In this document: in pieces, positions 19,123 through 63,141 of the stretch
Numbering within the stretch: position 1 is the stretch's first letter
Layout of the letters: each line of letters opens with the position of its first letter
Source of the DNA: a virus
Taxonomy: Duplodnaviria; Caudoviricetes
Reading direction: 5' to 3' (one strand)
DNA: 64,000 nt
Virus record (IMG/VR): IMGVR_UViG_3300014204_000113
Location: 64,001 to 128,000 of that record
The notes under the pieces: model-generated
Databases searched by the model: none
The model's input: the letters and a program-made list of their open reading frames with translations, nothing else
Told to the model about the DNA's origin: nothing
Program-made: the position numbers and the translations under genes

Positions 19123-19653
19123 ATGGAGAAACAAATCATGGAGTTGACAAGAATTAAAGTAACAGTTCATGGAACAAAACCTCTTTTGGTGCATCGTTTT
19201 GCGGAAGAAGAAAGCGGCAAATCCAGGAAGAAAGCAACTGAGGATTCAAAAACGCAGGCAGAAAAGGCTCTTTACACAAATGCAGATGGACCTTATGCAC
19301 CATCTTCTTGGTTTGAAGGAGCTATGGTTAAAGCCGGTGTAAATTTCTCGTTGCGCGGCAAGAAAACTTACAAAGATTTGGTTAAAAGTGCGGTTGTGGT
19401 GACACCAGAAGAAATTCCTCTACGCAACGAATGGGAAGTAGATTCTCGTCCTGTTGTGATTAGCGGCAGGATTATGCGCCATCGTCCTAAATTTAAAGAA
19501 TGGTCGGCAGAATTCACAGTTGAAATTACAGACCCGCAATTACCAGCAAATGTCTTGCAAGACATTTTGAAAGATGCAGGACAATATTGTGGCGTGGGTG
19601 ACTACAGACCCAAGTTTGGTACTTTTGAAATTGTTGAATTTAAAGAAATTTAA
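19123..19653 (+). CDS. stand-alone RAMP/Cas7-like protein, paralog 1 (GGT arrays)
   Basis: VHGTKPLL, PSS, DSRPVV...RIMRHRPKF..W, C-terminal G-loop AG..CGVGDYRPKFGTF. Confidence 0.8.
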   Translation: MEKQIMELTRIKVTVHGTKPLLVHRFAEEESGKSRKKATEDSKTQAEKALYTNADGPYAPSSWFEGAMVKAGVNFSLRGKKTYKDLVKSAVVVTPEEIPLRNEWEVDSRPVVISGRIMRHRPKFKEWSAEFTVEITDPQLPANVLQDILKDAGQYCGVGDYRPKFGTFEIVEFKEI

Positions 19654-19690
19654 TTGATAATTTATGTAGCAATAAAATTTAATTATTCTA

Positions 19691-19987
19691 TTGCTACATA
19701 AAAACAAGGTGGGCAGATTAATGTACAAAATATACAAATACCCGTTTGAAATCAAAGATGAATTCATCATTGAGATGCCTTATGATTCAAAGATTCTCAA
19801 CGCCTTTTGCCAAAATGATATTCCTTGTATGTGGGCATTAGTTAATCCACAAAGAAAATTACAAAAACGTAAATTCACCATTATAGGTACAGGGCATCCA
19901 ATTGAAGAAACTTACAATTTAGAACATATTTCAACTTTTTCACAATCTGATGGCAAATTCATCTGGCACCTTTTTGAGATAGTCTAA
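19691..19987 (+). CDS. phage hypothetical protein
   Basis: IYKYP...WALVNP...GTGH...WHLFE pattern; likely start ATG 19721. Confidence 0.6.
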   Translation: MLHKNKVGRLMYKIYKYPFEIKDEFIIEMPYDSKILNAFCQNDIPCMWALVNPQRKLQKRKFTIIGTGHPIEETYNLEHISTFSQSDGKFIWHLFEIV

Positions 19988-20394
19988 TGCCAGAAGATGA
20001 CAACAAGAAATTTGAAACCATAGCGATTTCAGCGGATTTGATAGCTGAACAATTATTAATCGGTTTTGGAACTATGGATGTTGATGCAGCAAGCAGTTTG
20101 CAATTGGGAATGGTCAAGGCTTTGGCTGTGATGTGGGCAGCTTGTTCCAATGGTGATTCCAATGAAATATTTCATAAAATAATGGAAGCGATGCCGCCAT
20201 TAGCAAATTTAAAACAAGCAGGGTGGGTGCAATAATATGGATAAATTAAAAAAGATTTTTTCAGAAATTGAACCGAAAAAGATTCCTCCAATCCCAAAAC
20301 ACATAAGAAAAATATTGGATGATTATTCTGATATGGTGGACAACGCATTAAAGAAAGGTGAAGAATATAGAAAAAATTCAAAGGACAGATTCTA

Positions 20395-20934
20395 ATGGAT
20401 TACGAATATTATTTTTCGATGTGCGACAAAGTAGCGGAAAAAAGCAAATGTTTCAGTCGTAAAATTGGTGTTCTTGTAATGACACCAGACCTTAGTATTA
20501 TAAATACAGCGTATAATGGCCCAGCACGAAAAGTAAGTCATTGTGATAGTCAAGAACGATTACAATGGCTTGAAAAACAATTGAAAGATACCCATGTTGG
20601 AGCGGTAGATTTATATTTATTGGACAATGGCTATGGAACAAAGTGTCCTCGTCAAATATTAAAATTTAAAAGTGGAGAAGGATTACATCTATGTCAGGCT
20701 GCACATGCGGAAAGAAATGCAATTGCAAACTGCGCTAGAGAAGGAATAAAAACAAAAAATAACTGGATGTTGATGAATTGTAGCCTTCCTTGTCAAGAAT
20801 GTTCCAAAGGAATTATTGGTGCAGGTTTTTCAAAAATAATATGTGTTGAAGGTGATGATTATGACAAAGGAAGCCGGTGGATTTTAGATCAAGCTGGAAT
20901 TGAAATAGTTCAAATAAAAAGACAAAAAATATAA
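20395..20934 (+). CDS. dCMP deaminase
   Basis: S.C..RKIG, YNG, HAERNAI, PCQEC. Confidence 0.88.
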   Translation: MDYEYYFSMCDKVAEKSKCFSRKIGVLVMTPDLSIINTAYNGPARKVSHCDSQERLQWLEKQLKDTHVGAVDLYLLDNGYGTKCPRQILKFKSGEGLHLCQAAHAERNAIANCAREGIKTKNNWMLMNCSLPCQECSKGIIGAGFSKIICVEGDDYDKGSRWILDQAGIEIVQIKRQKI

Positions 20935-21261
20935 AAAGAGAGGAATAAACAAATGAATTTTACGCCTGAAGAAATTAAAGAATTGGAAGAGGCGGTTGGT
21001 GTTTATCTTGAAATGGCCAAAGTTGTCAAACCAGTAGCAGAAGATATCGTTGATAGTATTTTGCAGTATGGACCTGTTTTAAGAAAATTGTTTGATGCCA
21101 TCATAGATTATCAAAACGAAAGAACCATTGCGACTATCAAACAATTTAAAGAAGCCGGTCTTGAACTTCACAACGATCAGATTCTTGCTTTGGTTCTTGG
21201 AAATAAAATGAGTTTTACTGACGTGTTGAAAAATATCAATTTTCAAAAATAAGGAGGAATA

Positions 21262-21690
21262 ATGAACATTTCCAAAGGCAGCAAATGGTATAAAATATTC
21301 ATGTGGTCATTGAGTATTTGTGAATCGTTTACTGGAAAACATTTATCATACAAATACCAAAATGGAACAAACCTTTGCCATATGATGCGAACCATATTTG
21401 TTTACATACCGTTGATCTTTTTGTCCCAGTTGTTGGTGTTGGGCGCGGCATTTTCGGTTTTAATTTACGTGCCGTTTAAATGGTTCGGAGCATTAACTTG
21501 GCTTGGTTTGATATTGGCAATAGTAGTTGGGTTTATTCTATTGTTTTCTCTTTTCATGGGTGGAGACAAACTTAAAAACAAGTTTGAAAGATGGTGTGAT
21601 GAAAAAGAACCAAGTCTTGTTTGGGAATGGATCAAAGCAAAGAAACATAAAATTTGTCCGTTGATCCAGTGGGAGAACAATCATGAGTAA
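21262..21690 (+). CDS. membrane protein
   Basis: two long hydrophobic segments; K.KICP C-terminus. Confidence 0.6.
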   Translation: MNISKGSKWYKIFMWSLSICESFTGKHLSYKYQNGTNLCHMMRTIFVYIPLIFLSQLLVLGAAFSVLIYVPFKWFGALTWLGLILAIVVGFILLFSLFMGGDKLKNKFERWCDEKEPSLVWEWIKAKKHKICPLIQWENNHE

Positions 21691-21996
21691 ATGGATAATG
21701 CCTCTTCCGGCTGTCGGAATCGCTCTCTTTGTAATCCCTTTTATCTTCGCGATTCAATTTGCTGTCCATCAAGATTATAAAATTTATGAAGGTCCGTGCT
21801 CATTTGTTGAATGGTCAACAGACAGTTTTAGATTGAAAATGAAGGTTAAATTTGACAATGGCAAAGAAGGAGAAACCTCTGACAAGAAAGCCTATCTACT
21901 TTTGGAAAAAGGTAAAACCATGATTGGTGAGTTGAAAATTTCTGGCGATGTTGATTTGAAAGAGCCTAAAGAAGAAAAGATTAAAGGATAATTAAT

Positions 21997-22437
21997 ATGC
22001 TACCAAGAAGCGGTTATCAACCAGAAGAAGAACTTGATTTGACGAATCCACCACAAGGTGATTCTGGTATTGATTGGCAAGAAATATTTTCCCAAACAGA
22101 AAAGAGGTCTCCTAAATTTTTTCAGATGTTGGTCAAGGCGGCTGACATCCACAATCGAAAAAACGCAAATTACGCAGGTTTGGGAAACGACCCGTTTGCC
22201 AATTTCAGAGAAGCGGAAAAATACGCTTGCCCTTCTTGCGGTGAAAAAATTCCAGCATGGCTCGGAGTAGCCATACGTATTTCGGACAAAACCAGTAGAA
22301 TCAACAACTTGCTTGGTGGTATTCCAGATATGGTTGGAGAAAGCCTTCTTGACACCTACACAGATTTAGGGGTTTATTCCAAAATTTTCTGCATTCTTTA
22401 CGAAGAATGGGAAGAGAAAAAGAAGAAAAAACTCTAA
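21997..22437 (+). CDS. DUF1599 / nucleotide-modification-associated domain protein
   Basis: RKNANYA...DPFANF...RISDK..RI...ESL.DT..DL.VY. Confidence 0.7.
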   Translation: MLPRSGYQPEEELDLTNPPQGDSGIDWQEIFSQTEKRSPKFFQMLVKAADIHNRKNANYAGLGNDPFANFREAEKYACPSCGEKIPAWLGVAIRISDKTSRINNLLGGIPDMVGESLLDTYTDLGVYSKIFCILYEEWEEKKKKKL

Positions 22438-22444
22438 AAATTTC

Positions 22445-22472
22445 TTGACAACCCGATTCTAAGGTTTATAAT
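22445..22472 (+). promoter_or_regulatory. sigma70-type promoter
   Basis: TTGACA-16-TATAAT upstream of a GGAGG RBS and gene 22504. Confidence 0.65.
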
Positions 22473-22503
22473 AGAGGCAAATCTTTGAAGGAGGAACCTG
22501 AAA

Positions 22504-22758
22504 ATGAAAACCCTATTCCTGATTTTGCTTCTATGTCTGCTTGCAAGTCCCGCATGGCCCAGAGACCACAACAATTATGTAATCAGAGACAAGAATTATA
22601 CTGTCAAAAATTATGTCAAAGATGGAAAAATTTATGATAAGAATTACCGTCTTGAAGGTTACATAAGTCCTAATGGCACTATCAGAGATAGAAATTATAA
22701 AACTGAAGGTTATCTTGACAGGAATAGAAGTGGCGGTCGCAAAGGGCGAAACAAATGA
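22504..22758 (+). CDS. secreted protein with three IxD(K/R)NY...Y repeats
   Basis: signal peptide MKTLFLILLLCLLASPAWP; repeats IRDKNY, IYDKNY, IRDRNY. Confidence 0.7.
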   Translation: MKTLFLILLLCLLASPAWPRDHNNYVIRDKNYTVKNYVKDGKIYDKNYRLEGYISPNGTIRDRNYKTEGYLDRNRSGGRKGRNK

Positions 22759-22928
22759 GAATTTCTGCTTACATTGTCATAATCGGTTTTGTCCTTGTAC
22801 TGGGTGGATGGATTTGGTTGGTGAATGATGTAGAATCCAAAAAACCAAGAGGTTTGAGTCCAAATCAGCAAGTAATGCTTGATAATGAAATATCAATCAA
22901 GAAAAAGATTTATGGTGATAGGAGATAA
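22755..22928 (+). CDS. small membrane protein (57 aa, below the ORF-track cutoff)
   Basis: ATGA overlap with the previous stop; N-terminal hydrophobic stretch. Confidence 0.55.
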   Translation: MRISAYIVIIGFVLVLGGWIWLVNDVESKKPRGLSPNQQVMLDNEISIKKKIYGDRR

Positions 22929-22929
22929 A

Positions 22930-22947
22930 TTATGATTAATCTTTACA
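22930..22947 (+). repeat. 18-bp direct repeat, left copy
   Basis: TTATGATTAATCTTTACA, identical at 24678-24695. Confidence 0.8.
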
Positions 22948-22983
22948 TTACCAAATGCCATTAGAAGAGAATAAAAAGTTTAC

Positions 22984-23058
22984 AGCATGGTTAGGCGAGT
23001 CCGGGCGATGCTAGGTAGGGCATGGCCAGGCGGGTCTAGGTGTGGCAGGTTGTGGCGA
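22984..23058 (+). ncRNA. GGC-NN pentamer array B1 (15 units)
   Basis: NN = AT TA GA CG GA TA AG AT CA GG TA GT AG GT GA; triplet mostly GGC/GGT with variants. Confidence 0.85.
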
Positions 23059-23106
23059 GGATTTAAAAAACGAAAAATCTAACACAAATAAAAGGAGGAA
23101 CAACAA

Positions 23107-23661
23107 ATGAACTTGGTACTGTGTAAATACAAAATTACTGGCTTATTTCCACTTTTAACCCACAGTCCTGCTGGAATGAGGCAAGCGGCCAATGCGCCAA
23201 AAGTCAAGAAGATTCCATCGCCAGAAGATGAAGCACAAGCTGGTTTGTATATTGATAATGATGGAAATTATTGCATCCCGTCTATTGCTTTTCGTTCAGC
23301 TTTATTGAATGGATTGAAAGGGAAAAAGATTGGCAAGGTGGGTGCAATTTCAGTGTTTCAAGCTGCGGTTTTTAACGTGGACGAATTGAGTCCATTAGTT
23401 GACCCTGAAACTGGGCGAGCATTAAGGGAATATACGATCGACACTCGTAGAGCTATCGTGCAAAGACAAGGAATTTTAAGAAACCGTCCAAGATTTGAAA
23501 AATGGGGATGTAATGTTTTTCTTCAAATCGACTTGGAAATAACCACACCTGAGCAAGTAGAAGAAGCATTGAATACGGCTGGTCAAATCATTGGCGTGGG
23601 TGATTTCCGTATTGAAAAGAGAGGAATGTTCGGTAAGTTTCAAGCCGAATTGGTTGAATAA
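23107..23661 (+). CDS. stand-alone RAMP/Cas7-like protein, paralog 2 (GGC arrays)
   Basis: ITGLFPLL, IPS, DTRRAIV...ILRNRPRF..W, AG..IGVGDFR....GMFGKF. Confidence 0.8.
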   Translation: MNLVLCKYKITGLFPLLTHSPAGMRQAANAPKVKKIPSPEDEAQAGLYIDNDGNYCIPSIAFRSALLNGLKGKKIGKVGAISVFQAAVFNVDELSPLVDPETGRALREYTIDTRRAIVQRQGILRNRPRFEKWGCNVFLQIDLEITTPEQVEEALNTAGQIIGVGDFRIEKRGMFGKFQAELVE

Positions 23662-23679
23662 AAGATTTTAAAGATTTGT

Positions 23680-23744
23680 GGCAAGGCGAGGCTGGGCTAG
23701 GCGGGGCTAGGCGGGGCTAGGCGGGGCTAGGTATGTCAAGGCGA
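23680..23744 (+). ncRNA. GGC-NN pentamer array B2 (13 units)
   Basis: NN = AA GA TG TA GG TA GG TA GG TA AT AA GA; internal (GGCGGGGCTA)x3. Confidence 0.8.
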
Positions 23745-23789
23745 GGTTTGAAAAAGAAATTAAGAACAAGAAATATAATGATTTTTCGC

Positions 23790-23839
23790 GGCGGGGTGGG
23801 GCGATGCCCGGCCCGGCATGGTAAGGCAAGTTAAGGCGA
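23790..23839 (+). ncRNA. GGC-NN pentamer array B3 (10 units)
   Basis: NN = GG GG GA CC CC AT AA AA AA GA. Confidence 0.8.
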
Positions 23840-23870
23840 GGGTTTTCAAACAAAACAAAGGAGAATAAAT

Positions 23871-24548
23871 ATGCTAATCAAAGCAGCAGAATTGATTGAG
23901 GATTTCAGTTTATATCCACGTTCCCAAGTGGACACAACACATGTAAGAAATATTGCAGAAGCAATGATGGCAGGAGAAAAATTTCCGTCTATCATCATTG
24001 ATGAACAAAATAGGATTATTGATGGCTTCCATCGGAAAAGAGCTACATTGAGGGTTTTTGGAGATGAGGCTGATATTGAAGTAGAAGTTCGACAATATGT
24101 TAACGATAAAGAAAGATTTCTTGATGCTTTGAGATATAATTCAAGACACGGTAAGGGAATAACTGGAGTTGAACAGACAGGAGCTATTTTGAAGGCTCAA
24201 GGTTTCAAGATTGACCCTAAATTTATCGCTTCTGCTTTGGGAATCAGCCAAGAAAGAGTCAAAGAAATCGTGCAATGTAAAGTCGGGAACATTCGCCAAG
24301 GTACGACTGCTCATGGAGACCCAGTTCCTCTAAAACGCTCTATGCAGCATTTTGCTGGGAAAGAAATGACTGTTGAGCAAGTTAAGGTGAATGATATGGC
24401 TCCCGGCACGCCACAATCTCTTCTTATCAATCAACTTATCGGATTTATTGAAAGCGGTAGTTTACAACTGGAAAATGAAAAGATTGTTAATGGACTCATC
24501 CATTTGAAGGAACTTTTAAATGGATTGGTTTTGGAAAAAGCGGTTTGA
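23871..24548 (+). CDS. ParB/Srx N-terminal domain protein inside the GGC module
   Basis: YPR, FPSIII, IIDGFHRKRA, N..HG, followed by a possible HTH (IASALGIS). Confidence 0.75.
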   Translation: MLIKAAELIEDFSLYPRSQVDTTHVRNIAEAMMAGEKFPSIIIDEQNRIIDGFHRKRATLRVFGDEADIEVEVRQYVNDKERFLDALRYNSRHGKGITGVEQTGAILKAQGFKIDPKFIASALGISQERVKEIVQCKVGNIRQGTTAHGDPVPLKRSMQHFAGKEMTVEQVKVNDMAPGTPQSLLINQLIGFIESGSLQLENEKIVNGLIHLKELLNGLVLEKAV

Positions 24549-24563
24549 AATAATTAAAGATTT

Positions 24564-24623
24564 GGCTCGGCTTGGTTGGGCGCGGCTAGGCTATGCGCGG
24601 CTTTGCGTGGCAGGGCAAGGCGT
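24564..24623 (+). ncRNA. GGC-NN pentamer array B4 (12 units)
   Basis: NN = TC TT TG GC TA TA GC TT GT AG AA GT. Confidence 0.8.
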
Positions 24624-24677
24624 GGATTTATCATCACAAAGAACAAATTTGAATTAAGTGAAACAGGAGGAGGTAAT

Positions 24678-24695
24678 TTATGATTAATCTTTACA
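24678..24695 (+). repeat. 18-bp direct repeat, right copy
   Basis: TTATGATTAATCTTTACA. Confidence 0.8.
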
Positions 24696-24723
24696 CGAGG
24701 TTGGCCTATGTTAGACGACCCGA

Positions 24724-25230
24724 GTGAGATGGACACTAAAGCTGACGGCCTTCTTATGGCTGATTTTAACAATAACCCTTTACCCGATGGCAACCTCCAG
24801 CCAACCTTTAAAAGAAACGACTATGTTGCCAACTCGGAAGTATCAAAAGCAGGAACCTTCAATTATTGTGATTAAGGCTTTGATTTGCGCTTCTGCAATT
24901 AAACATAAAGTTAAGCCAGAGGAATTAATGGCATTAGCTCACATTGAATCTCGCAAAGGTAAAAAAGAATTTCGTGTGGGATTAACTGGTAGATACTATT
25001 TGCCGATGGGTATATACAAAGGGTGTAAAACCGAAGATGACAAATCAACTTTAAGTGGCAATATTGAAATTGGAGCAAAAACATTGTCTAGACTTATCCA
25101 CAGAAGAGGAAGTCTAAAAAAGGCGCTTCAAAAATACAATGCCAGTTTCAATTCCAGTTATTGGAACGAAGTAAGAAGAGCATCCAAGAAATATAAACAT
25201 GAACTTAAACATGGATTTTTAACCCAATAA
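24724..25230 (+). CDS. lytic transglycosylase (SLT)-like protein with N-terminal signal/anchor
   Basis: ALAHIES catalytic motif, NI.IGA..L, AL.KYN. Confidence 0.65.
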   Translation: MRWTLKLTAFLWLILTITLYPMATSSQPLKETTMLPTRKYQKQEPSIIVIKALICASAIKHKVKPEELMALAHIESRKGKKEFRVGLTGRYYLPMGIYKGCKTEDDKSTLSGNIEIGAKTLSRLIHRRGSLKKALQKYNASFNSSYWNEVRRASKKYKHELKHGFLTQ

Positions 25231-25244
25231 AGGAGGAATAAGAA

Positions 25245-25559
25245 ATGAAGAAAATGGTTGAAGGTCTTTTGGTGGAAACTTTTCCCAACGAACAAATTAG
25301 GGCTTGGTGTACAAGAAGTCGTCTATGTGGTCAGGGATCGGATGGTAATTGTTTTGAATTTGACGACCCAGACAAAAGAAATTTATCTAAAAATACTAAA
25401 TCTTTAATAAAAGAACTTTGTTTTATCAATGGAATCAAAAAAGCGAGTTGTTGGCCTTATGAAATAAGAATTGAAAAGGCTAAAACCTATACTTGGGAAG
25501 AACTTGAACCAATCATCTTATATCTGATGGTTAAATATGAGGTTTATGCTGAGAGGTAG
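25245..25559 (+). CDS. NifU/Nfu N-terminal-like protein
   Basis: ETFPN...LIKEL..INGI......I.IEK....WEELEP.I. Confidence 0.55.
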   Translation: MKKMVEGLLVETFPNEQIRAWCTRSRLCGQGSDGNCFEFDDPDKRNLSKNTKSLIKELCFINGIKKASCWPYEIRIEKAKTYTWEELEPIILYLMVKYEVYAER

Positions 25560-25565
25560 ATAAAA

Positions 25566-25652
25566 ATCGGTGTGGCGGAATGGTAAAGGCAATAGATTGC
25601 TAATCTATCTGGTGTCAAAGCCGCGAAGGTTCGAATCCTTCACTTACCACCA
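25566..25652 (+). tRNA. degenerate tRNA-Ser(GCT)-like (possible pseudo-tRNA)
   Basis: ATAGA-TTGCTAA-TCTAT anticodon arm, long variable arm, GAAGG-TTCGAAT-CCTTC, CCA; acceptor stem pairs poorly. Confidence 0.6.
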
Positions 25653-25663
25653 TTTTAAAATGT

Positions 25664-25739
25664 GGACTCGTAATTCAGTTGGTAGAAGCCTCAACTCATA
25701 ATTGAGTAGTCTCCCGTTCGAGCCGGGACGAGTCCACCA
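25664..25739 (+). tRNA. tRNA with CAT anticodon (elongator Met or Ile2)
   Basis: GGACTCG/CGAGTCC acceptor, CTCAA-CTCATAA-TTGAG, TCCCG-TTCGAGC-CGGGA, ACCA. Confidence 0.88.
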
Positions 25740-26046
25740 TAAATAAAAGGAGGTTTGATATGGGAGATAGGTATGAATTCAGTTTAAACTGCACAAGATG
25801 TTTATATAACAACCAAGTTTATTATGCGCCATCTTCTGGTTTCACTACATTTAAATGTGAGATGTGTGGACAATTTCATAGGATACAATTAGGATTTACT
25901 GCTATTCCTATAACCGAAGAAGAATATAATAATCCAATATGTGAGGAATAACTTATCTCGAATCTACATTTATTGGTTAAACAAAACCAACAAGAAGTTT
26001 TTAAATTTTGATTATGTTTAATGAAATTTAAAAAAGGAGAAATCTA

Positions 26047-26736
26047 ATGAGAGATAAAATCTGTGTAGCCCTTGATGTTCCAAGTCCCGAAGCAATTCAG
26101 TTAATAGAAAAATTAAATGGTAAAGTAGGATGGTGCAAGATCGGTCCTGCTCTTTTGACTACGGAAGATGGTCTACGATTGGCAGTTTTTGCTAAAGATC
26201 ATGGATTTAAAACCTTTCTTGATTTCAAATTTAAAGACATCCCTTCTGTGGTTACTAAGGGTATCAAAAATCTACACGGTATTGCCGATTTGATCACTGT
26301 TCATATTGATGGTGGAATTACTATGTTGAAAGAAGCAAAACAAGCAGCAGGTGATAATATCAAAATAATTGGTGTTACCTTACTCACTAGTCTTGGGAGA
26401 CAAGATTTGGAAGATTTTGGCTATGACAATTCCAGAACCTCAGAAGTCCAAGTTATTCAAATGACCCATCTTGCAATTAAATCTGGTATCGATGGTATAG
26501 TTTGTTCTGCTCAAGAATTAGGTAGGGTGAAGGCAAATAATTCACAATTGTTTTGTGTAACTCCAGGCTTAAAAATGCCTCAAGGAGATGATCATGAAGA
26601 CCAAGCGAGAACTGGCAACCCTCGTTGGGCCTACCAGCAAGGAAGTGATTTATTGGTTATGGGTCGAGATATTTATGAAGCCAAAGACCCTGTAAAACAA
26701 GTGGAGTCTATTGTAAAATTGTGTTTAGGGAATTAA
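26047..26736 (+). CDS. pyrF: orotidine-5'-phosphate decarboxylase
   Basis: ALD, KIG, DFKFKDIP, VTLLTS, DGIVCS, TPG, DQAR, VMGR. Confidence 0.92.
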   Translation: MRDKICVALDVPSPEAIQLIEKLNGKVGWCKIGPALLTTEDGLRLAVFAKDHGFKTFLDFKFKDIPSVVTKGIKNLHGIADLITVHIDGGITMLKEAKQAAGDNIKIIGVTLLTSLGRQDLEDFGYDNSRTSEVQVIQMTHLAIKSGIDGIVCSAQELGRVKANNSQLFCVTPGLKMPQGDDHEDQARTGNPRWAYQQGSDLLVMGRDIYEAKDPVKQVESIVKLCLGN

Positions 26737-31936: not shown

Positions 31937-32217
31937 TGGTGGACAAATAATGTTAATAACCAAAGAATGGATAGACAAAGTTTGTCCTAAACATGGCAGG
32001 ACTTCTTGCAGTGATGAGAAGATATATAATGGTTTTGGCGGGTGGAATGGAAAATACGATGCGGATACTGGCGCTAAAATAATCAAATATCCTAGATGCA
32101 ATAGGTGCTATTTATTGGATAATCTTGGAATGGATACTGAAAACTTGGAATTTAAGATATATACTGAAACTACTCTTTCATATAAAATTAAGAATTAAAT
32201 AGATAGGATAGAAGGAG

Positions 32218-33141: not shown

Positions 33142-33151
33142 GGAGACATTA

Positions 33152-52343: not shown

Positions 52344-52413
52344 GGTCCGGTATGGTTTGGTGAGGTATGGTGAGGTGCGGTAAGGTGAGGTCAGGTTTGG
52401 TGGGGTAAGGTAT
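52344..52413 (+). ncRNA. GGT-NN pentamer array A5 (14 units)
   Basis: NN = CC AT TT GA AT GA GC AA GA CA TT GG AA AT; same leader and tail as A3. Confidence 0.85.
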
Positions 52414-52445
52414 GGGTTTCAACTATCTTCAAAGTTTTGCTTTTT

Positions 52446-52520
52446 GGTATGGTCAGGTATGGTTAGGTAAGGTATGGTACGGTTCGGCGGGGTTTGGTTC
52501 GGTAAGGTAAGGTATGGTAA
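52446..52520 (+). ncRNA. GGT-NN pentamer array A6 (15 units)
   Basis: NN = AT CA AT TA AA AT AC TC GG TT TC AA AA AT AA. Confidence 0.88.
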
Positions 52521-52522
52521 GG

Positions 52523-52549
52523 TAGATGGGAGAGTCTATCTCCCATCTA
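52523..52549 (+). terminator. 11-bp hairpin closing array A6
   Basis: TAGATGGGAGA-GTCTA-TCTCCCATCTA. Confidence 0.7.
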
Positions 52550-52568
52550 AATTTTAAACGGAGGAATA

Positions 52569-55156: not shown

Positions 55157-55162
55157 TTTATT

Positions 55163-56518: not shown

Positions 56519-57215
56519 AGTTCGAAAACAAGTTCTTGAAAATTGCTATCTATACAAAAACAGCCATTTGTCATCCTGTCTCTCTGTGGTGGACATTATT
56601 TCAACATTATATTTTGGTGACTTTATTGGTGAAGGACTTGGGAAGTTAATTCTCTCTAAAGGCCATGCCAATGAAACTTTATCTACTGTTTTAGAAATGA
56701 TGGGGATGCAAGGAGTAAGACATAGCGATCATCCAGAATTTGGAAATATTGGGATCGAAACAACAACAGGCTCATTGGGTCAAGGACTTGGAATTGCTTG
56801 CGGGATAGCCTTAGCTAATAAAATTAATAATTCCAATGAAAGAGTTTATGTTCTTTGTGGAGACGGGGAAATGATGGAAGGTCTCAGCCAAGAAGCCATC
56901 CACTCTATTTATGATTTAGATTTACCTATTAAAGTATTGATAGACAAAAATTGGTATGCTTCTGAAAGACAACCAAGTTCTTTGTTATTTGGAACGGTAT
57001 TAAAAACAATGATAGATGGGCATGATATAGAAGAAATATATGATGCCTTACAAACAGATGAAAAAGTCATTATATGCGACACTACAAAAGCGTTTGGACT
57101 TCATCGGATACACGATATAAATATAATAAATTGGGATATGATCCACTATTTAACCCCTAGCGAGAAAAATATAAATGAATTTAGGAAACAATTAAATGAC
57201 TACTCAAAGAGATAG
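56487..57215 (+). CDS. transketolase N-terminal (TPP-binding) subunit
   Basis: LSKGH, TGSLGQG, GDGE. Confidence 0.88.
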   Translation: MIQQLKIKANEVRKQVLENCYLYKNSHLSSCLSVVDIISTLYFGDFIGEGLGKLILSKGHANETLSTVLEMMGMQGVRHSDHPEFGNIGIETTTGSLGQGLGIACGIALANKINNSNERVYVLCGDGEMMEGLSQEAIHSIYDLDLPIKVLIDKNWYASERQPSSLLFGTVLKTMIDGHDIEEIYDALQTDEKVIICDTTKAFGLHRIHDINIINWDMIHYLTPSEKNINEFRKQLNDYSKR

Positions 57216-58032
57216 ATTTTTCCAAACGATAGGTAACGCGTATAATTCCGGCAGGAATGATTTAGTAATTCTAACTGCTGATATGGGAGCAAAAGCCCTA
57301 AACAAATTTAAAAAAGACCCAAACTTTCTTATCAATACAGGGCCTTGTGAGCAGTTAGTAATCTCTATGGGGGCTGGATTAGCATTACAGAAAAAACATC
57401 CTTATTGTTATGGCATCACACCATTTATTTCTTTAAGAGCATTAGAACAAATAAGAATAATGTGTTCTATGAATTTACCTGTAACTATAGTAGGAGTAGG
57501 AGCAGGCTTATCATATGACACGGCAGGGTTGACTCATCATGCGACAGAAGATTTGAACATAATTCGTTGCATCCCAAATATAACTATTTGTAATGTTTCT
57601 TCTTTAGAGATGGCGGAATATTATGCAAAAGTTTCTTTGGATTTTGACAAACCTCTGTATATCAGGCTCGATAAATATTCCACACACCTTGATAATGTAA
57701 CTGATTATGGTTGGAAGATAATCAAATATCCTAAGAAGAATTATCCATTTGTTGTTGCCACAGGTACTATTGTTGATTATTTATGGAGAAACTTGTCATA
57801 TGATTATGGTTTCATGGAGATATTTCAATTTCCTATTGATGAAAGAGTGGTCTCTTGTATCTTAAAGAATTTTGATGTTATTTCCGTTGAAGAAGGGTAC
57901 AAAGTAGGAGGATTGGGTGATTCGTTATCTTTTCTTCCTGATGTAAAGAAAATTGGTTTCAATAACTTCTGTGAAGCTAAACCAAGAGAAGAGTATTGGA
58001 AAATTTTACTAAGAGAGGTATTAAATGCTTAA
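57196..58032 (+). CDS. transketolase C-terminal subunit
   Basis: TADMG, G.CEQ, RALEQIR, THHATED, YIRL. Confidence 0.88.
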   Translation: MTTQRDRFFQTIGNAYNSGRNDLVILTADMGAKALNKFKKDPNFLINTGPCEQLVISMGAGLALQKKHPYCYGITPFISLRALEQIRIMCSMNLPVTIVGVGAGLSYDTAGLTHHATEDLNIIRCIPNITICNVSSLEMAEYYAKVSLDFDKPLYIRLDKYSTHLDNVTDYGWKIIKYPKKNYPFVVATGTIVDYLWRNLSYDYGFMEIFQFPIDERVVSCILKNFDVISVEEGYKVGGLGDSLSFLPDVKKIGFNNFCEAKPREEYWKILLREVLNA

Positions 58033-59674
58033 AGACTCATTGACTCTTTACATTCCTACAATGAATCGCTCACAATTTCTCAATCGTTCCTTAAAATATT
58101 ATAATAACGTGAAATTTGATGGTACGATTCTCATTGGTGACAGCAGCAACAAAGAAGAAAAAAAGTTAAACGAAGAAGTAATAAATAAATATCCAGATTT
58201 AGATATTAATTACCATCATTTAAAACTCCCATCTGACCATCACGACGCATTAAAGACAAACCGACTTTTGGATAAAATTAAAACGCCATATATAACTTTT
58301 GCTGGCGATGATGATTTTCAAATACCTAACGGTCTTAAAATGTGTACTGAATTTCTTAATTATTCACCAGATTATGTTGCAGCACATGGTCATAGATTAA
58401 ATTTTACGATAGATAATACAGTAAATGGAAATGTTATAGCCTTGGATTCACACCCAGGATATGATTGGACTAATGAAGATGACCCAATTAAAAGATGGCA
58501 AGAATATCTGAGATGTGGAGTAGCTACTACATATTATGTACATAGGACAGAAAATTGGAAAAAGTATTATTCCTATTCACATCTAGCTAAAAGCAATTAC
58601 ATTGGTAATGAATTGATTCCATGTTCTTTATGTGTCTTGTCTGGTAAAATTAAAAGAATTGAATGTTTATCCACGGCATTTCAAAGAGATAATCCTATTA
58701 GAGAATTTTCATTTGTTAAGACTACTTTATGGGATTTGATTAATGGCGAATATTGGAGAGATTCTGTAAGGTTTTTTGAAGAAGCAGTTACGTCTATATT
58801 GTCTGATAAATTTGAAGTTAAACAAATTAAAGAATTGTTTTATCAAGAATTTTGGTATCACTGTCTGTTGATTATGAATGGGCAATTCAATGGCAGATAT
58901 GGTGAAAAAAAAGATGAACCAACTACACGAATTTTAGACTTATCTACCATGAGTGAAGATGACGATTTCTATCCGATCCATCAAGTTTTGATAGAAAATT
59001 CTAATGCTGAAATTCTTAGTAATTATTTGAAGAAGATACAAAAATTGGATATAAGAGAAGGTTCAACAAATGACGATTTTATGACATTAATAAACTTAGC
59101 AAAATCTGTGGAAAAGAATGGGATACAAGCAGTGGAAATTGGTTCTTGGAAAGGTGGGACTGCTGGCGCAATAGGACAAGTGGTTAAGGAAAATAAAGGT
59201 AAGTTGTATTGTTGCGACCCTTGGGCGAACGAAACTTGCGATGCAGACCATTCAGATATATTGGAAATATTTAAAAAGAATATCTCTGAATTAGAGTTAG
59301 AAGACAATGTTGTTATTATAAGAGAGCCATCACGAGAAGCGTTTAAACATTTTGAAGATGAATCTCTTGATATTGTGTTTCTGGATGGGCTTCATATGTA
59401 TCCATATATTTATCCTGATGTTGAAAACTTCTATCCTAAAGTCAAGAAAGGCGGAATAATTGCTGGACATGATTTAAATGTACGATATGAAACTCTTAAT
59501 AGTGAACAATGGAAAGAAATAGATGAAAATATAAATGTTAATTGTGTCACTGTTAAATCATTAGGTAGACAAGTCCATTGCGGAGTAGCAAGGGCTGTTT
59601 ATGACTACTTTGGCAGTGATTATAATTCTTCTGACAACCCAATGAACGCGGTTTGGTGGGTGGTAAAAGAATAA
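58025..59674 (+). CDS. GT-A glycosyltransferase (paralog 3) fused to a Methyltransf_24 domain
   Basis: IPTMNR, GDDDF; VEIGSWKG, FLDGLH, GGIIAGHD. Confidence 0.82.
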   Translation: MLKDSLTLYIPTMNRSQFLNRSLKYYNNVKFDGTILIGDSSNKEEKKLNEEVINKYPDLDINYHHLKLPSDHHDALKTNRLLDKIKTPYITFAGDDDFQIPNGLKMCTEFLNYSPDYVAAHGHRLNFTIDNTVNGNVIALDSHPGYDWTNEDDPIKRWQEYLRCGVATTYYVHRTENWKKYYSYSHLAKSNYIGNELIPCSLCVLSGKIKRIECLSTAFQRDNPIREFSFVKTTLWDLINGEYWRDSVRFFEEAVTSILSDKFEVKQIKELFYQEFWYHCLLIMNGQFNGRYGEKKDEPTTRILDLSTMSEDDDFYPIHQVLIENSNAEILSNYLKKIQKLDIREGSTNDDFMTLINLAKSVEKNGIQAVEIGSWKGGTAGAIGQVVKENKGKLYCCDPWANETCDADHSDILEIFKKNISELELEDNVVIIREPSREAFKHFEDESLDIVFLDGLHMYPYIYPDVENFYPKVKKGGIIAGHDLNVRYETLNSEQWKEIDENINVNCVTVKSLGRQVHCGVARAVYDYFGSDYNSSDNPMNAVWWVVKE

Positions 59675-59886
59675 ATGAACACTTATATATTTTTTAGAGA
59701 ATTAAATAAATATATATTTAATGAAAAGTGCGATGAAAAAAGATCATGTAAAGATTGTGATTATCAACAATGTTGTTTCTATACTAAATGTTTGAGAAGA
59801 TATAGCAACAAACATATTTTAGAAACATTTAAAATTGTATATGATTTATAAAAAATTATTTCTAATCTACTAAGAAGGAATTATTA

Positions 59887-61272
59887 ATGATTGATTTTTT
59901 GTTTATCAAACCTGGAAATCAAAAAGTCTTATATGCAGAAACTTCTGCTTTTAATTTAACGGCAATTGAGCCTCCATTTTGGCCACTACTTCTTGCATCG
60001 TTTCTCACAAGACAAAACATTCCTTCTAGAATTATAGACTTGGAAGTCCAAAGCATTGATTCTTTGAATCACATGTTAATAGACAACAAACCAAAATTTA
60101 CAGTAATTTGTGTCAGCGGGCATAATCCAAACGCGAGTATCATGAGCATGGCTGGTTTAGATGATTTATGCAAAAATATAAAAGATGTTTGTGCAACTAC
60201 TAAAATCATTCTTCATGGTTTATATCCCTCTTCTTGTCCAACAAAAGTTTTAGAAAAACATAAATTGGTAGATGAAATTCTAATGAAGGAGGGTTTTTTA
60301 AGTCTAGGTCATTTGATGGGCTACAAAAGAACAGAACCTATATCAATAAATGATATAGGAAAAATTAATTGGTCTTTAATAGACATAGCTAAATACCGCG
60401 CTCATAATTGGCATCTGTTTGGAAACATTCACAATAGGTCTCCATATGGAATTGCTTTCACTTCTTTTGGTTGTCCTCACAATTGCGATTTTTGTTGTGT
60501 AAATTTAATGTATAGTAAAGTACAATTAAGAGATATAGATTTGGTATTCCAAGACATTAAAAATCTATATGATAGAGGCGTAAAAAATTTTAAATTTATG
60601 GACGAGTTGTTTTTAATGCACAAGGGTAGGGTACAACAATTATGCTCAATGTTAATTGCTAATAAAATGCAAGACATCAATGGTTGGGCTTACGCTAGAA
60701 CAGATTCTATAGATGAAGATATAATTACACTAATGAAAAATGCTGGAGTGAAATGGCTAGGGCTGGGTTATGAGAGTGGTTCGCAATTAATATTAGATTC
60801 TTCTGATAAAAAACAAAGTTTAAAAAAAGCATATCAAGCTACAGAAATATGCAAAAAGGTTGGGATGAATATTTGTGGTAATTTCGTATTTGGGTTGGCA
60901 GATGATAATTATGAAACCATGGAAGCCACTTCTAAATTAGCTATTGACTTACAACCAGAATGGGCTAATTATAATGTGGTTTTTGCTTTTCCTAGGACGA
61001 AGTTATATGATAAGGTGAAAAATGAGCCTTGGTTTAATGAACCAACTGAGTATGAGCAGTATTCTCAACATGGCTATTCCTGCACACCAATGGGAACAAA
61101 ATATCTTAGCCCAAAAGAAGTCTTGGAATTTAAGGATGAAGCATTCAGAGAATTTTACCAGAACGAGAATTATCTGAGGATGTTAGAGGTAAAATTTGGG
61201 GTTGAAACCAGAGAATATGTAGCAAATTCACTAATTTACTATCCAAAAAGAAAACTTTATGATTTGACCTAA
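59887..61272 (+). CDS. B12-binding radical SAM enzyme
   Basis: TSFGCPHNCDFC, GYESG, N-terminal Rossmann-like domain. Confidence 0.85.
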   Translation: MIDFLFIKPGNQKVLYAETSAFNLTAIEPPFWPLLLASFLTRQNIPSRIIDLEVQSIDSLNHMLIDNKPKFTVICVSGHNPNASIMSMAGLDDLCKNIKDVCATTKIILHGLYPSSCPTKVLEKHKLVDEILMKEGFLSLGHLMGYKRTEPISINDIGKINWSLIDIAKYRAHNWHLFGNIHNRSPYGIAFTSFGCPHNCDFCCVNLMYSKVQLRDIDLVFQDIKNLYDRGVKNFKFMDELFLMHKGRVQQLCSMLIANKMQDINGWAYARTDSIDEDIITLMKNAGVKWLGLGYESGSQLILDSSDKKQSLKKAYQATEICKKVGMNICGNFVFGLADDNYETMEATSKLAIDLQPEWANYNVVFAFPRTKLYDKVKNEPWFNEPTEYEQYSQHGYSCTPMGTKYLSPKEVLEFKDEAFREFYQNENYLRMLEVKFGVETREYVANSLIYYPKRKLYDLT

Positions 61273-61278
61273 AAGGAC

Positions 61279-61307
61279 TTGCTGGCCAAGAAATTTTGAA
61301 GTATAAT
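61279..61307 (+). promoter_or_regulatory. sigma70-type promoter
   Basis: TTGCTG-17-TATAAT. Confidence 0.5.
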
Positions 61308-61708
61308 CTTAATAAGGAGAAGAAATTTGACAGAAAAATTAATTTCAATGAAGGGTGGTAACAAACCTTCAATAACAAGAGAAACAATAAGATTAATGAA
61401 AGAGGAATTACCATACATCCTTGAATATTTTCCTATTTATGCTGAAATGACAAAAGCTAAATTTGAGGCTTTAAAAGAGAAAGGGTTTACTGAAATTCAG
61501 GCATTAGAATTGTGCAAGGGTTTTATGTTATAAGGAGAAATTATGGGTGATTATGCTTTGCCTTCTATTTATGAAAGATGCGGCTGGAAAAAAGACGAGG
61601 TTTATCTTCATTCCTTGCTTGAAAGATGTGCAGAAGGACTTGCAGCAGCAACTCAATATGGCGCAGGTAATTGGTCTGAACTAATTAAAGAAATTTATAG
61701 GGTGATAA

Positions 61709-62410
61709 ATGTCCAAGAAGACTAAATCCAAGAAACCTAAAGGTATCTCTCCAGAAGAATTCTTAAAAAACCTTAACACTCTAGATTTGTTGGATGGGAA
61801 TTTTTCTGATAATGATGCCTTAGCTCTTATGAAATTAGCTAAAGAATCAATCAAAGATAAAAGTGGACCTTTTAATTTTTTAGAAATTGGAACATGGAAG
61901 GGGAAATCACTTATTTGTCTCTCTGTTATAATAAGTAAATTCCCAGAAAGTAAAATTTTTGCTATAGACCATTTTAAAGGTACATTTGGAACAAACGAAG
62001 AACAACTTGCTAAAACTAATGACATATTGACAACTTGTAAAAATAATTTAAAAATAGTAAATGCTAGTGATATTGTTTGTCTATTAAATATGAATTACTT
62101 TGATGCAATCAAAATATTAAAGCAAAAATTTTTTGACTTTATATATATTGATATGGACAATAGTTATCAAGTAATGAAAAGTGTTTTGTGTGATTCTAGA
62201 AATTTAATTAAAAGTGGAGGAATGATATGTGGAAGAAATTTAATTGCAGATTATCTAGATGTAAAAGAAATTATAGACTCTAATCTTAATAAAGAATATT
62301 TAGAAGAATCAAAAATGCATCCTGGAATTATACGATCTGTCTATGATGTTTTTGCAAATAAATATCAAAAAATGGATAATAGTTCTTTTTGGTATTGGAT
62401 TAATAATTAA
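61709..62410 (+). CDS. class I SAM methyltransferase (Methyltransf_24)
   Basis: LEIGTWKGKS, AIDHF, FIYID, GGMICG. Confidence 0.82.
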   Translation: MSKKTKSKKPKGISPEEFLKNLNTLDLLDGNFSDNDALALMKLAKESIKDKSGPFNFLEIGTWKGKSLICLSVIISKFPESKIFAIDHFKGTFGTNEEQLAKTNDILTTCKNNLKIVNASDIVCLLNMNYFDAIKILKQKFFDFIYIDMDNSYQVMKSVLCDSRNLIKSGGMICGRNLIADYLDVKEIIDSNLNKEYLEESKMHPGIIRSVYDVFANKYQKMDNSSFWYWINN

Positions 62411-62438
62411 TAATATTTGGTAATATCCAACTGGATAT

Positions 62439-62528
62439 TGTGTTGTAATGTTCTGTGTTGTGTGGCGCTGTAGTGTAATGTTAAGTCCTGTAGTGTGGCG
62501 TAGTGTGTTGTTATGTGTTCTATTCTAA
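62439..62528 (+). ncRNA. TGT-NN pentamer array C1 (18 units)
   Basis: NN = GT AA TC GT GT GC AG AA TA CC AG GG AG GT TA GT AT AA; flanked by hairpins AATATCCA/TGGATATT and GGATTC/GAATCC. Confidence 0.82.
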
Positions 62529-62574
62529 GGGGATTCTGTATTGAATCCAAAATAAATTTAAGGAGAATTAAATA

Positions 62575-63141
62575 ATGAAAATTAAAGTTACAATTCAAGG
62601 AACAGTTCCAATTTTATTTAATCGTTTTGCAGAAGAGAATGAAGTTAAAGTTGCTTCTGGAATTAATCCAGTTCAAGGAGGACAAAGAGGAACGCCTAGA
62701 GAACAAGCAGAAAAGAAACTATATCAAGACGTGGATGGGAATTTGTTTCTTCCAAGTCCTATGTTATTTTCTTGTTTAGTAGATGCTGGTAAATTCCATA
62801 AAGTGGGAAGAAATAAAGTTACGACTCAGAAGACTTCTTTAGTTCCTGCCGGTATATCTGTTGAAGAATTAATCATTCCGTTTAATACTAAAGATTGGGA
62901 AATTGATTCTAGAAGCGTTGTGATACCATCTACTGGTGGTAGAATCATGTGTCACAGACCCCGGCTTGATGAGTGGCAATTAACTTTCACTTTGGATGTT
63001 GATACAACAATGTTTGATCCTAAGTTTGTTAGGACTCTTATGGATGATGCAGGCAAGAAATGTGGCTTGGGTGATTATAGACCTAATCGTAAAGGGCCAT
63101 TTGGTAAATTTGTTGTGATTAATTGGGAAGAAGAAAAATAA
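62575..63141 (+). CDS. stand-alone RAMP/Cas7-like protein, paralog 3 (TGT array)
   Basis: IQGTVPIL, LPS, DSRSVVI...RIMCHRPRL..W, AG..CGLGDYRP..KGPFGKF. Confidence 0.8.
   Translation: MKIKVTIQGTVPILFNRFAEENEVKVASGINPVQGGQRGTPREQAEKKLYQDVDGNLFLPSPMLFSCLVDAGKFHKVGRNKVTTQKTSLVPAGISVEELIIPFNTKDWEIDSRSVVIPSTGGRIMCHRPRLDEWQLTFTLDVDTTMFDPKFVRTLMDDAGKKCGLGDYRPNRKGPFGKFVVINWEEEK

What the first reader, a model, noticed from the sequence alone, without database searches (positions are those of the whole stretch)
19123..63141. Three paralogs with three triplet preferences: possible orthogonal guide channels
GGT arrays flank paralog 1 and occur as four orphans. GGC-dominated arrays occur only around paralog 2, and TGT only before paralog 3. 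This suggests protein-RNA co-evolution to avoid guide cross-talk, and naturally orthogonal programmable tools. No acquisition enzyme is evident, so how NN pairs are written from a target is an open mechanistic question.
Basis: inference. Interest (0 to 1): 0.78.

Follow-up and report, generated by a model that had tools for sequence, protein, structure and literature searches.

The report
Three VIPR systems in one phage
A 188-kb uncultured phage carries three different versions of the CRISPR-like VIPR protein published in 2026, each beside guide-RNA arrays with its own fixed triplet (GGU, GGC or UGU); the system is known, but whether the three work as separate, non-interfering channels is plausible and untested.

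Summary
The window holds three homologous 176-188 aa genes and eleven intergenic arrays with a strict 5-base period, all on the + strand. The complete 187,988-bp genome has two more arrays. GGC arrays occur only around paralog 2 and the single TGT array only before paralog 3.

The system is not new. The proteins are Vipr, matching PDB 36pp "SUSP1 Vipr protein" at E 3.7e-37, and the arrays are vrRNA genes of VIPR systems (bioRxiv 10.64898/2026.04.26.720920). This scan has already noted VIPR in at least 541 other genomes.

The three genes are not in-genome duplicates. They belong to three separate Vipr clades, each with closer relatives elsewhere that carry the same triplet type. Position 3 mostly follows genome GC across clades. 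The paralog-2 clade is the exception: it keeps C (38 C, 8 T here) although neighbouring synonymous sites are only 21-33% C. The paralog-3 clade has a relaxed first position (N/W-G-Y).

Lineage-specific triplet constraint is therefore supported, and separate loading stays an inference. Each array class contains a few units of the other triplet, and GGT and GGC arrays share the same 3' end motif. No Cas1, Cas2 or reverse transcriptase was found. No targets were found for the GGC or TGT guides.

The parts
19123..19653 (+). vipr paralog 1 (176 aa), GGT channel
   Evidence: PDB 36pp SUSP1 Vipr: profile E 3.7e-37, single sequence 1.9e-14. phrog_4652 8e-26. AF2 model pLDDT 92.7, with Cas7/Csm3/Cmr4 as best folds. 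Sits in its own clade with P0004 (75% identity), whose arrays are also GGT.
23107..23661 (+). vipr paralog 2 (184 aa), GGC channel
   Evidence: phrog_4652 5.7e-17. In a 24-row clade with 99% support. Five relatives' loci (L013, L014, L015, L026, L028) show the same layout, array-vipr-array-227/228 aa gene-array, all GGC.
62575..63141 (+). vipr paralog 3 (188 aa), TGT (N/W-G-Y) channel
   Evidence: phrog_4652 1.1e-18. In a 7-row clade with 99% support. The closest relative, L005 (64% identity), has an upstream array with T at position 1 in 12 of 15 units.
18712..19026 (+). DUF559 (Vsr-like endonuclease fold) gene between the two GGT arrays; candidate accessory gene (vap) of paralog 1
   Evidence: PF04480 E 4.5e-8. 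The same recA-array-DUF559-array-vipr order occurs in L016 and L017. A weak MTES_1575 nuclease-fold gene lies upstream of the relative in L020.
23871..24548 (+). ParB-like gene (225 aa); candidate accessory gene (vap) of paralog 2
   Evidence: phrog_1033 ParB-like E 1.7e-12. A conserved 227-228 aa neighbour is present in L013-L015 and L026-L028, with a faint ParB_N hit.
18587..18706 (+). GGT vrRNA array, 24 units, directly after recA
   Evidence: Its two-read, one-skip decoding matches the recA 3' end of relative L016 at 32 of 48 bases (maximum of 200 shuffles: 29).
19034..19093 (+). GGT vrRNA array, 12 units, ends 30 nt before vipr 1
   Evidence: In sister-phage contigs of two metagenome runs, 32 nt of it are replaced by 161 other letters while the flanks stay about 93% alike. 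A whole-unit 5-nt insertion is also seen.
22984..23058 (+). GGC-dominated, degenerate vrRNA array, 15 units, before vipr 2
23680..23749 (+). GGC vrRNA array, 14 units, starts 19 nt after vipr 2
23790..23839 (+). GGC vrRNA array, 10 units, before the ParB-like gene
24564..24623 (+). GGC vrRNA array, 12 units, starts 16 nt after the ParB-like gene
62439..62518 (+). TGT vrRNA array, 16 units, before vipr 3. Position 1 is T in 13 of 16 units, position 2 is G in 16 of 16, position 3 is a pyrimidine in 16 of 16.
   Evidence: The only such array in the genome.
4927..4991 (+). orphan GGT vrRNA array, 13 units
48664..48763 (+). orphan GGT vrRNA array, 20 units, directly after an epimerase/dehydratase gene
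   Evidence: Its best match in the whole genome under the one-skip rule is the last codons of that gene (48613-48650), in codon phase. Score 16 against a shuffle maximum of 11.5.
52344..52413 (+). orphan GGT vrRNA array, 14 units, between glycosyltransferase genes
52446..52525 (+). orphan GGT vrRNA array, 16 units

Best explanation
The region holds three co-resident VIPR systems of three different Vipr lineages in one complete 188-kb phage genome, together with 13 vrRNA (guide RNA) genes.

Established for the family by the 2026 preprints: Vipr protomers polymerise along a vrRNA, one protomer per 5-nt unit. They bury the fixed triplet and present the two variable bases. The filament then binds double-stranded DNA that matches the variable pairs with one skipped base between them, and silences it.

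Shown here:
- The three proteins are Vipr homologues with the RNA-contacting Arg/Asp/aromatic/Arg residues kept.
- Each has arrays of its own triplet type next to it.
- The triplet type is a property of each protein's clade. The paralog-1 clade uses GGU. The paralog-2 clade uses GGC, with C held under constraint. The paralog-3 clade has a relaxed or A/T-preferring first base, an invariant G, then a pyrimidine.

Inferred, about even odds: the triplets act as address labels, so that guides are loaded wholly or mainly by their own Vipr. This would route them to different accessory modules: a DUF559 nuclease-fold protein with paralog 1, a ParB-like protein with paralog 2, and none with paralog 3. 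Insulation is most likely for the UGU array, and least certain between GGU and GGC.

How new guides are written is unknown.
For: Family identity:
- PDB 36pp SUSP1 Vipr at E 3.7e-37 with the family profile and 1.9e-14 with paralog 1 alone.
- The confident AF2 model (pLDDT 92.7) finds Cas7, Csm3 and Cmr4 as best folds.
- The residues the structure paper names as contacts (SUSP1 R138, D177, R179, and the aromatic at 178) are kept in all three paralogs.

Arrays:
- 13 arrays of 10-24 units, against none in 20 shuffles.

Triplet follows lineage:
- The three paralogs sit in three clades with 99% support, each with closer kin elsewhere at 75, 78 and 63% identity.
- Those kin carry GGT (L016, L017, L019), GGC (L013, L014, L015, L026, L028) and T/A/N-G-Y (L005, L008, L006) arrays.

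Constraint on position 3:
- The paralog-2 arrays have 38 C and 8 T. Synonymous pyrimidine sites are 21% C genome-wide and 25-33% C in vipr 2 and its neighbour (p 7e-19 and 5e-14).
- Paralog-2-clade arrays are at least 94% C in genomes whose vipr and vap synonymous sites are only 33-72% C.
- GGT arrays have 124 T and 4 C against 79% expected (p 5e-9).

Position 1:
- In SUSP1, changing GGY to AGY abolished silencing (paper 1, fig. S12 legend). A UGU array is therefore unlikely to serve a G1-reading Vipr.

Pocket residues:
- Residues aligned to the published position-3 pocket differ between paralogs: S/W plus C, I/A plus I, and P/M plus C.

Guides are live:
- Arrays differ between sister-phage contigs while their flanks are conserved, and they change by whole units.
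- Three GGT guides match neighbouring or relatives' genes under the one-skip rule above shuffle controls.
Against: - No experiment or RNA data exists for this phage.
- The structure paper describes the position-3 pocket of both SUSP1 (mostly GGU) and P. fulva (mostly GGC) Vipr as excluding purines only.
- In type II, in the paralog-1-side clade and in the paralog-3 clade, C versus T follows genome GC. One relative (L021) mixes 10 T and 13 C in a single array.
- Each class here contains a few units of the other triplet.
- GGT and GGC arrays in this genome share the same 3' end motif, GG(G/A)TTT, so the tail does not separate them.
- More distant paralog-3-clade relatives use mostly G at position 1. 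Paralog 3 may therefore also accept GGT or GGC arrays.
- The histidine that reads G1 in SUSP1 does not track position-1 usage in my sample.
- No target was found for any GGC or TGT guide.
Confidence: 0.8

Rival explanations
1. The triplets are historical baggage and the channels are not separate. Each VIPR cassette arrived with the triplet of its donor lineage. All three Viprs accept any pyrimidine at position 3, and paralog 3 accepts any base at position 1. Guides are therefore shared freely among the proteins, and the spatial association only reflects cassette ancestry.
For: - The published pocket excludes purines only.
- Position 3 follows genome GC in three clades, and one relative's array mixes C and T.
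- Both classes here contain minority units of the other triplet.
- GGT and GGC arrays share the same 3' end motif.
- The three genes are old lineages, not local duplicates.
Against: - C is kept at 83% in the paralog-2 arrays of a 34% GC phage whose vipr 2 and ParB-like genes have drifted to 25-33% C at synonymous pyrimidine sites.
- The same clade keeps at least 94% C in four other genomes of mixed composition.
- GGT arrays are purer in T than neutral expectation.
- GGY to AGY abolishes function in SUSP1, which argues that the UGU array is not open to G1-reading Viprs.
Confidence: 0.35
2. Only one or two of the three systems are active. The TGT array and the degenerate first GGC array would be decaying remnants, and paralog 3 (or 2) a relic or a protein with another role.
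For: - The first GGC array has only 7 of 15 exact units.
- Paralog 3 has one array and no conserved accessory gene.
- No targets were found for GGC or TGT guides.
Against: - All three reading frames are intact and keep the RNA-contact residues.
- The TGT array keeps G at position 2 and a pyrimidine at position 3 in 16 of 16 units, and T at position 1 in 13 of 16.
- The closest relative has the same T-first array in the same place.
- The preprint reports that internal degeneracy is common in working vrRNAs.
Confidence: 0.1
3. The arrays are not guide RNAs. They would be DNA-level repeats, such as protein-binding sites, promoters or recombination sites, that happen to lie next to RAMP-like genes.
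For: There is no expression data for this phage. Promoter and terminator scans are at chance level.
Against: - The proteins are clear homologues of a solved Vipr that binds exactly this kind of repeat as RNA.
- All arrays lie on the sense strand of their surroundings.
- The variable pairs decode to neighbouring or relatives' genes in codon phase.
Confidence: 0.02

Closest known systems
Type II VIPR system of Escherichia phage SUSP1 and the Pseudomonas fulva prophage (Vipr, vap1, vrRNAs; bioRxiv 10.64898/2026.04.26.720920 and .720927; PDB 36pp)
   Same: - A small single-RRM RAMP protein with G-loop and thumb, and the same RNA-contact residues.
- Arrays of 5-nt units with a fixed triplet and two variable bases, beside the gene and as solo copies elsewhere.
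- Phage-borne, with no adaptation genes.
- Guides decode with one skipped base in codon phase.
   Different: - Only 21-29% identical to SUSP1 Vipr, and in other clades.
- The arrays end in a short GG(G/A)TTT motif or plain hairpins instead of the long conserved pseudoknot tail.
- The accessory genes differ (DUF559 fold, ParB-like, or none).
- Three systems sit in one genome, whereas each of 161 cultured phage records with a hit has one.
VIPR types with an alternative repeat consensus (NNNGG, YNNNG, NNNNG) mentioned in the methods of 10.64898/2026.04.26.720920
   Same: The TGT array and its relatives' T/A/N-G-Y arrays fit the published YNNNG description: a pyrimidine, two variable bases, a free base, then G.
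   Different: The preprint's text, as held here, gives no example sequences. It does not mention co-residence with GGY systems or any preference for U at the free position. I could not assign the three paralogs to the seven published types because the type tables and figures are not held.
Solo or orphan vrRNAs of satellites and vipr-less phages (bioRxiv 10.64898/2026.10.15.759431)
   Same: vrRNA genes far from any vipr gene, loaded by a Vipr encoded elsewhere.
   Different: Here the orphans are in a phage that has its own Viprs, and all six are of the GGT type only.
Co-resident CRISPR-Cas types with type-specific repeats (established knowledge)
   Same: Several RNA-guided systems in one genome, each with repeats matched to its own RAMP proteins. 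This keeps guide pools separate.
   Different: There are no CRISPR repeats or spacers and no Cas6, Cas1 or Cas2. The label is a 3-base motif repeated in every unit rather than a repeat handle.

Membership tests
VIPR system (Vipr + vrRNA) | Vipr protein: a minimal RAMP (single RRM core, G-loop, thumb) homologous to SUSP1 Vipr | tested here: met
   PDB 36pp at E 3.7e-37 (profile) and 1.9e-14 (paralog 1). All three paralogs match phrog_4652. The AF2 model finds Cas7-family folds as best matches.
VIPR system (Vipr + vrRNA) | Conserved RNA-contact residues (SUSP1 R138, D177, aromatic 178, R179) | tested here: met
   Alignment A3. The aligned residues are R121/D160/Y161/R162 in paralog 1, R127/D166/F167/R168 in paralog 2 and R128/D167/Y168/R169 in paralog 3. 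The contacts are as named in the structure paper.
VIPR system (Vipr + vrRNA) | Tandem 5-nt units with a conserved GGY (or related) triplet and two hypervariable bases, next to vipr | tested here: met
   13 arrays of 10-24 units, with none in shuffles. Array content differs between sister contigs.
VIPR system (Vipr + vrRNA) | Guides match natural DNA targets under the one-skipped-base rule | tested here: inconclusive
   Three GGT guides score above shuffle controls against neighbouring or relatives' genes, in codon phase for the array at 48664. No target was found for the GGC or TGT guides. The one metagenome hit is best read as chance.
VIPR system (Vipr + vrRNA) | vrRNAs are expressed as roughly 100-nt RNAs and co-purify with Vipr | not testable with these tools
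   No RNA run is listed for this DNA.
VIPR type II (SUSP1 clade) | Invariant structured 3' tail with a pseudoknot, and a vap1 accessory gene | tested here: not met
   The arrays end in GG(G/A)TTT or simple hairpins. The neighbours are DUF559-fold and ParB-like genes. The paralogs fall outside the SUSP1 clade.
CRISPR-Cas | Repeat-spacer array plus Cas1-Cas2 adaptation module | tested here: not met
   The genome has no Cas1 or Cas2. The arrays are 5-nt units, not repeats and spacers.

The most novel reading that the evidence does not exclude
The three Vipr lineages of this phage are naturally orthogonal. Paralog 2 would demand C at position 3 and paralog 1 would demand U. Paralog 3 would read a non-G (U or A) first base that G1-reading Viprs reject. 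One cell could then run three separate guide pools, each coupled to a different accessory activity: a nuclease-fold protein, a ParB-like protein, or plain binding. This would also shield each pool from rivals' decoy guides.
Probability: 0.35. Interest if true: 0.7.

Novelty: new member of a known kind. Interest (0 to 1): 0.42.

Why it matters
VIPR is a very recent addition to the RNA-guided systems. What fixes the pairing between a Vipr and its guides has been examined only for two type II proteins.

A single genome with three lineages and three triplet types is a natural test bed for whether the fixed triplet is an address label. If it is, it would give ready-made orthogonal parts for multiplexed programmable silencing. 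It would also explain how a phage can stack several VIPR systems, or resist decoy guides of the kind satellites use. If it is not, the case shows that triplet differences are mostly ancestry and base composition.

Tried and rejected
- Pfam found nothing for the three paralogs.
With paralogs 1 and 2 it found no viral contigs.
- Searching the phage's own genome with all 13 guides under skip rules of 0-2 bases gave only shuffle-level scores. The exceptions were partial matches beside two GGT arrays.
- None of the guides matched the relatives' loci I had fetched.
- Exact-pattern scans of viral contigs found nothing for the central 10 units of the TGT guide, the full 13-unit guide at 4927, and the full GGC guide at 24564.
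- The scan of metagenome contigs with the 3' 10 units of the TGT guide gave one hit. The other six units match at 1 of 12 bases, the match is out of codon phase in a MoxR-like bacterial gene, and about one chance hit is my own rough expectation for a 20-base pattern, the collection's size not being given. I reject it as chance.
- No RNA holder is listed for this DNA.
- Promoter-like and terminator-like sites around the arrays are at chance level.
- I looked for class-specific 3' tails. GGT and GGC arrays share GG(G/A)TTT, so this gave no support for separate channels.
- The histidine that reads G1 in SUSP1 does not track position-1 usage among relatives.
- I did not run complex prediction, because it takes no RNA and I make no protein-protein binding claim.


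Full report
**What is in the sequence**

The window is part of a complete 187,988-bp virus record with terminal repeats (window = genome 64001-128000). It has about 34% GC and nearly all genes lie on the + strand.

A period-5 scan finds eleven intergenic arrays in the window, all on the + strand. Six are GGT, four are GGC-dominated and one is TGT. Two more GGT arrays lie elsewhere in the genome. No such run appears in 20 shuffles.

They are 34-41% identical, all match phrog_4652, and they are the only three matches to the family profile in the genome.

The spatial claim holds genome-wide. GGC arrays occur only within 22984-24623, around paralog 2 and its neighbour. The TGT array occurs only at 62439-62518, before paralog 3. 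Two details need correcting. Both GGT arrays near paralog 1 are upstream of it and bracket a DUF559 gene. A further GGT array lies about 1 kb downstream of paralog 3, just past the window end.

**What it is**

A profile of the family hits PDB entry 36pp, "SUSP1 Vipr protein", at E 3.7e-37. Paralog 1 alone hits it at 1.9e-14. A confident AF2 model (pLDDT 92.7) finds Cas7-family RAMPs as its best structural matches: type VII Cas7, Cmr4, Csm3 and Cas7-11.

Three 2026 preprints describe the system. VIPR consists of a Vipr protein and vrRNAs made of alternating GGY and NN segments. One protomer binds each 5-nt unit, buries the triplet and presents the NN pair. The filament recognises double-stranded DNA in which one base is skipped between successive pairs, and silences it. 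Solo vrRNAs far from vipr are also published.

The finding is therefore a rediscovery of VIPR. This scan has already noted VIPR in at least 541 other genomes, some with two Vipr genes (AI notes, not checked by me).

**Are the three triplets tied to the three proteins?**

A tree of 90 Vipr sequences puts the three paralogs in three separate clades. The smallest well-supported groups have 3, 24 and 7 rows, each with 99% support. Each paralog has closer relatives in other contigs, at 75, 78 and 63% identity. They are old lineages brought together, not local duplicates that diverged to avoid cross-talk.

The relatives carry the same triplet type:
- The closest kin of paralog 1 (L016, L017) repeat the recA-array-DUF559-array-vipr order with GGT arrays.
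- Five loci of the paralog-2 clade repeat array-vipr-array-227/228 aa gene-array, always with GGC.
- The closest kin of paralog 3 (L005) has an upstream array with T at position 1 in 12 of 15 units.
- L008, also in the paralog-3 clade, has A or T there in 33 of 40 units.
- More distant members of the paralog-3 clade use mostly G at position 1.

The paralog-3 clade thus has an invariant G at position 2 and a free or A/T-leaning position 1. This fits the "YNNNG" alternative consensus mentioned in the preprint's methods.

**The composition confound**

Across my sample, C versus T at position 3 mostly follows genome GC. Felix O1-type phages at 39-40% GC use GGT. Pseudomonas, Mycobacterium and Gordonia phages at 61-68% GC use GGC. 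A 61% GC relative on the paralog-1 side mixes 10 T and 13 C in one array. This agrees with the structure paper, which describes the position-3 pocket as excluding purines only.

The paralog-2 clade is the exception. In this 34% GC phage its arrays have 38 C and 8 T. Synonymous pyrimidine sites are 21% C across the window's genes and 25-33% C in vipr 2 and the ParB-like gene (p 7e-19 and 5e-14). The clade also keeps at least 94% C in genomes whose vipr and vap genes are only 33-72% C at such sites.

The GGT arrays have 124 T and 4 C, which is purer than the 79% T expected (p 5e-9). Two array classes in one genome therefore depart from neutrality in opposite directions. This is the best evidence here that position 3 is read differently by different lineages.

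**Contact residues**

I used the contacts named for SUSP1 Vipr: G1 by H17 and D177, G2 by R138 and W178, and Y3 by E71, M72, C173, residue 175 and R179. These were mapped through alignment A3.
- The Arg, Asp, aromatic and Arg positions are kept in all three paralogs.
- The helix-1 pair aligned to E71/M72 is S/W in paralog 1, I/A in paralog 2 and P/M in paralog 3.
- The position aligned to C173 is C, I and C respectively.
- The position aligned to H17 is H, H and N. It does not track first-base usage among relatives, so I draw no conclusion from it.

These mappings are inference from alignment, not structure.

**Evidence for and against separate channels**

For:
- The clade-linked triplets and the constraint on position 3 described above.
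- The published result that changing GGY to AGY abolishes SUSP1 silencing. This makes the UGU array an unlikely substrate for a G1-reading Vipr.
- The three lineages have different neighbours: a DUF559 nuclease-fold gene (PF04480, 4.5e-8), a ParB-like gene (phrog_1033, 1.7e-12), and no conserved neighbour. Separate guide pools would then have a functional point.

Against:
- Each class contains a few units of the other triplet.
- GGT and GGC arrays share the 3' end motif GG(G/A)TTT, although the closest paralog-1 relative has a different tail.
- Distant paralog-3 relatives tolerate G at position 1.
- Nothing here measures loading.

I put orthogonality at roughly even odds overall. It is more likely for the UGU array than for the GGU and GGC classes.

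**Are the guides live, and what do they hit?**

In two other metagenome runs, sister-phage contigs are about 93% identical across DUF559 and vipr 1. In them, 32 nt of the array at 19034 are replaced by 161 other letters, and they also carry a whole-unit insertion.

Under the one-skip rule, no guide has a strong match in the phage's own genome. Three partial matches stand out:
- For the array at 48664, the best genome-wide match is the last codons of the gene just upstream. It is in codon phase and scores 16 against a shuffle maximum of 11.5.
- The minus-strand array at genome 167.5 kb behaves the same way.
- The array behind recA matches the recA 3' end of relative L016 at 32 of 48 bases, against a shuffle maximum of 29.

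This agrees in part with earlier notes of this scan, which say that GGT guides spell sister-phage alleles of the adjacent gene. For the GGC and TGT guides I found no target. Three exact scans were empty, and the single metagenome hit looks like chance.

**Acquisition**

The genome has no Cas1, Cas2 or reverse transcriptase. The VIPR preprints describe no adaptation module either. How new NN pairs are written remains open. The only hints here are that arrays change by whole units and by replacement between sister strains, and that some guides sit beside the phage's own diverged copy of the matched gene.

**Verdict**

The thing is a known kind of system, and the region adds three new members of it. 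One arrangement I did not find in the three preprints' text is three lineages with three triplet types in one genome. Searches for paralog, orthogonal, co-occur and same genome found nothing. All 161 cultured phage records with a hit have a single copy, as do five relatives' viral records.

The orthogonality idea is a reasonable hypothesis with partial support from composition statistics, and it can be tested directly at the bench.

Noticed in passing
window 44601-46121: A HEARO RNA (Rfam RF02033, 136 bits) lies directly upstream of a 425-aa RRXRR + HNH protein. This is an IscB-type RNA-guided nuclease with its guide RNA. The phage therefore carries another class of RNA-guided system besides the three VIPRs.
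   Followed up: partly
genome 128190-128259 (190 bases beyond the window end): A 14-unit GGT array lies about 1 kb downstream of vipr 3, after a 101-aa gene and a metallophosphoesterase gene. It contains two GGC units and is followed by a hairpin. It is unclear which Vipr it serves.
   Followed up: partly
window 23680-23749: The variable pairs of this GGC array alternate TA and GG over seven units (TA four times, GG three). Its predicted target would itself be a 6-base tandem repeat, which is odd for a guide against a coding sequence.
   Followed up: no
window 19031-19093: In sister-phage contigs of two other metagenome runs (landfill and groundwater), the array before vipr 1 is replaced by a longer, different one. 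A single 5-nt unit is inserted after 19078. The flanking genes stay about 93% identical.
   Followed up: partly
L008 3566-3765: A relative of paralog 3 is followed by an uninterrupted 40-unit (200-nt) array with A or T at the first position in 33 units. This is much longer than the 9-16 units described for type II vrRNAs.
   Followed up: no
L020 3550-3920: A relative on the paralog-1 side, in a 32% GC contig filed under a Pacearchaeota assembly, is followed by arrays with mostly AGT or TGT units. Relaxed first positions are therefore not confined to the paralog-3 clade.
   Followed up: no
window 14356-14431, 25566-25739: Three tRNA genes are present: Gly-TCC, Ser-GCT and Met-CAT.
   Followed up: no
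window 59887-62410: A radical SAM gene and a Methyltransf_24 gene lie just upstream of the TGT array. A dCMP deaminase gene (20395-20934) and a DUF7352 gene follow vipr 1.
   Followed up: no
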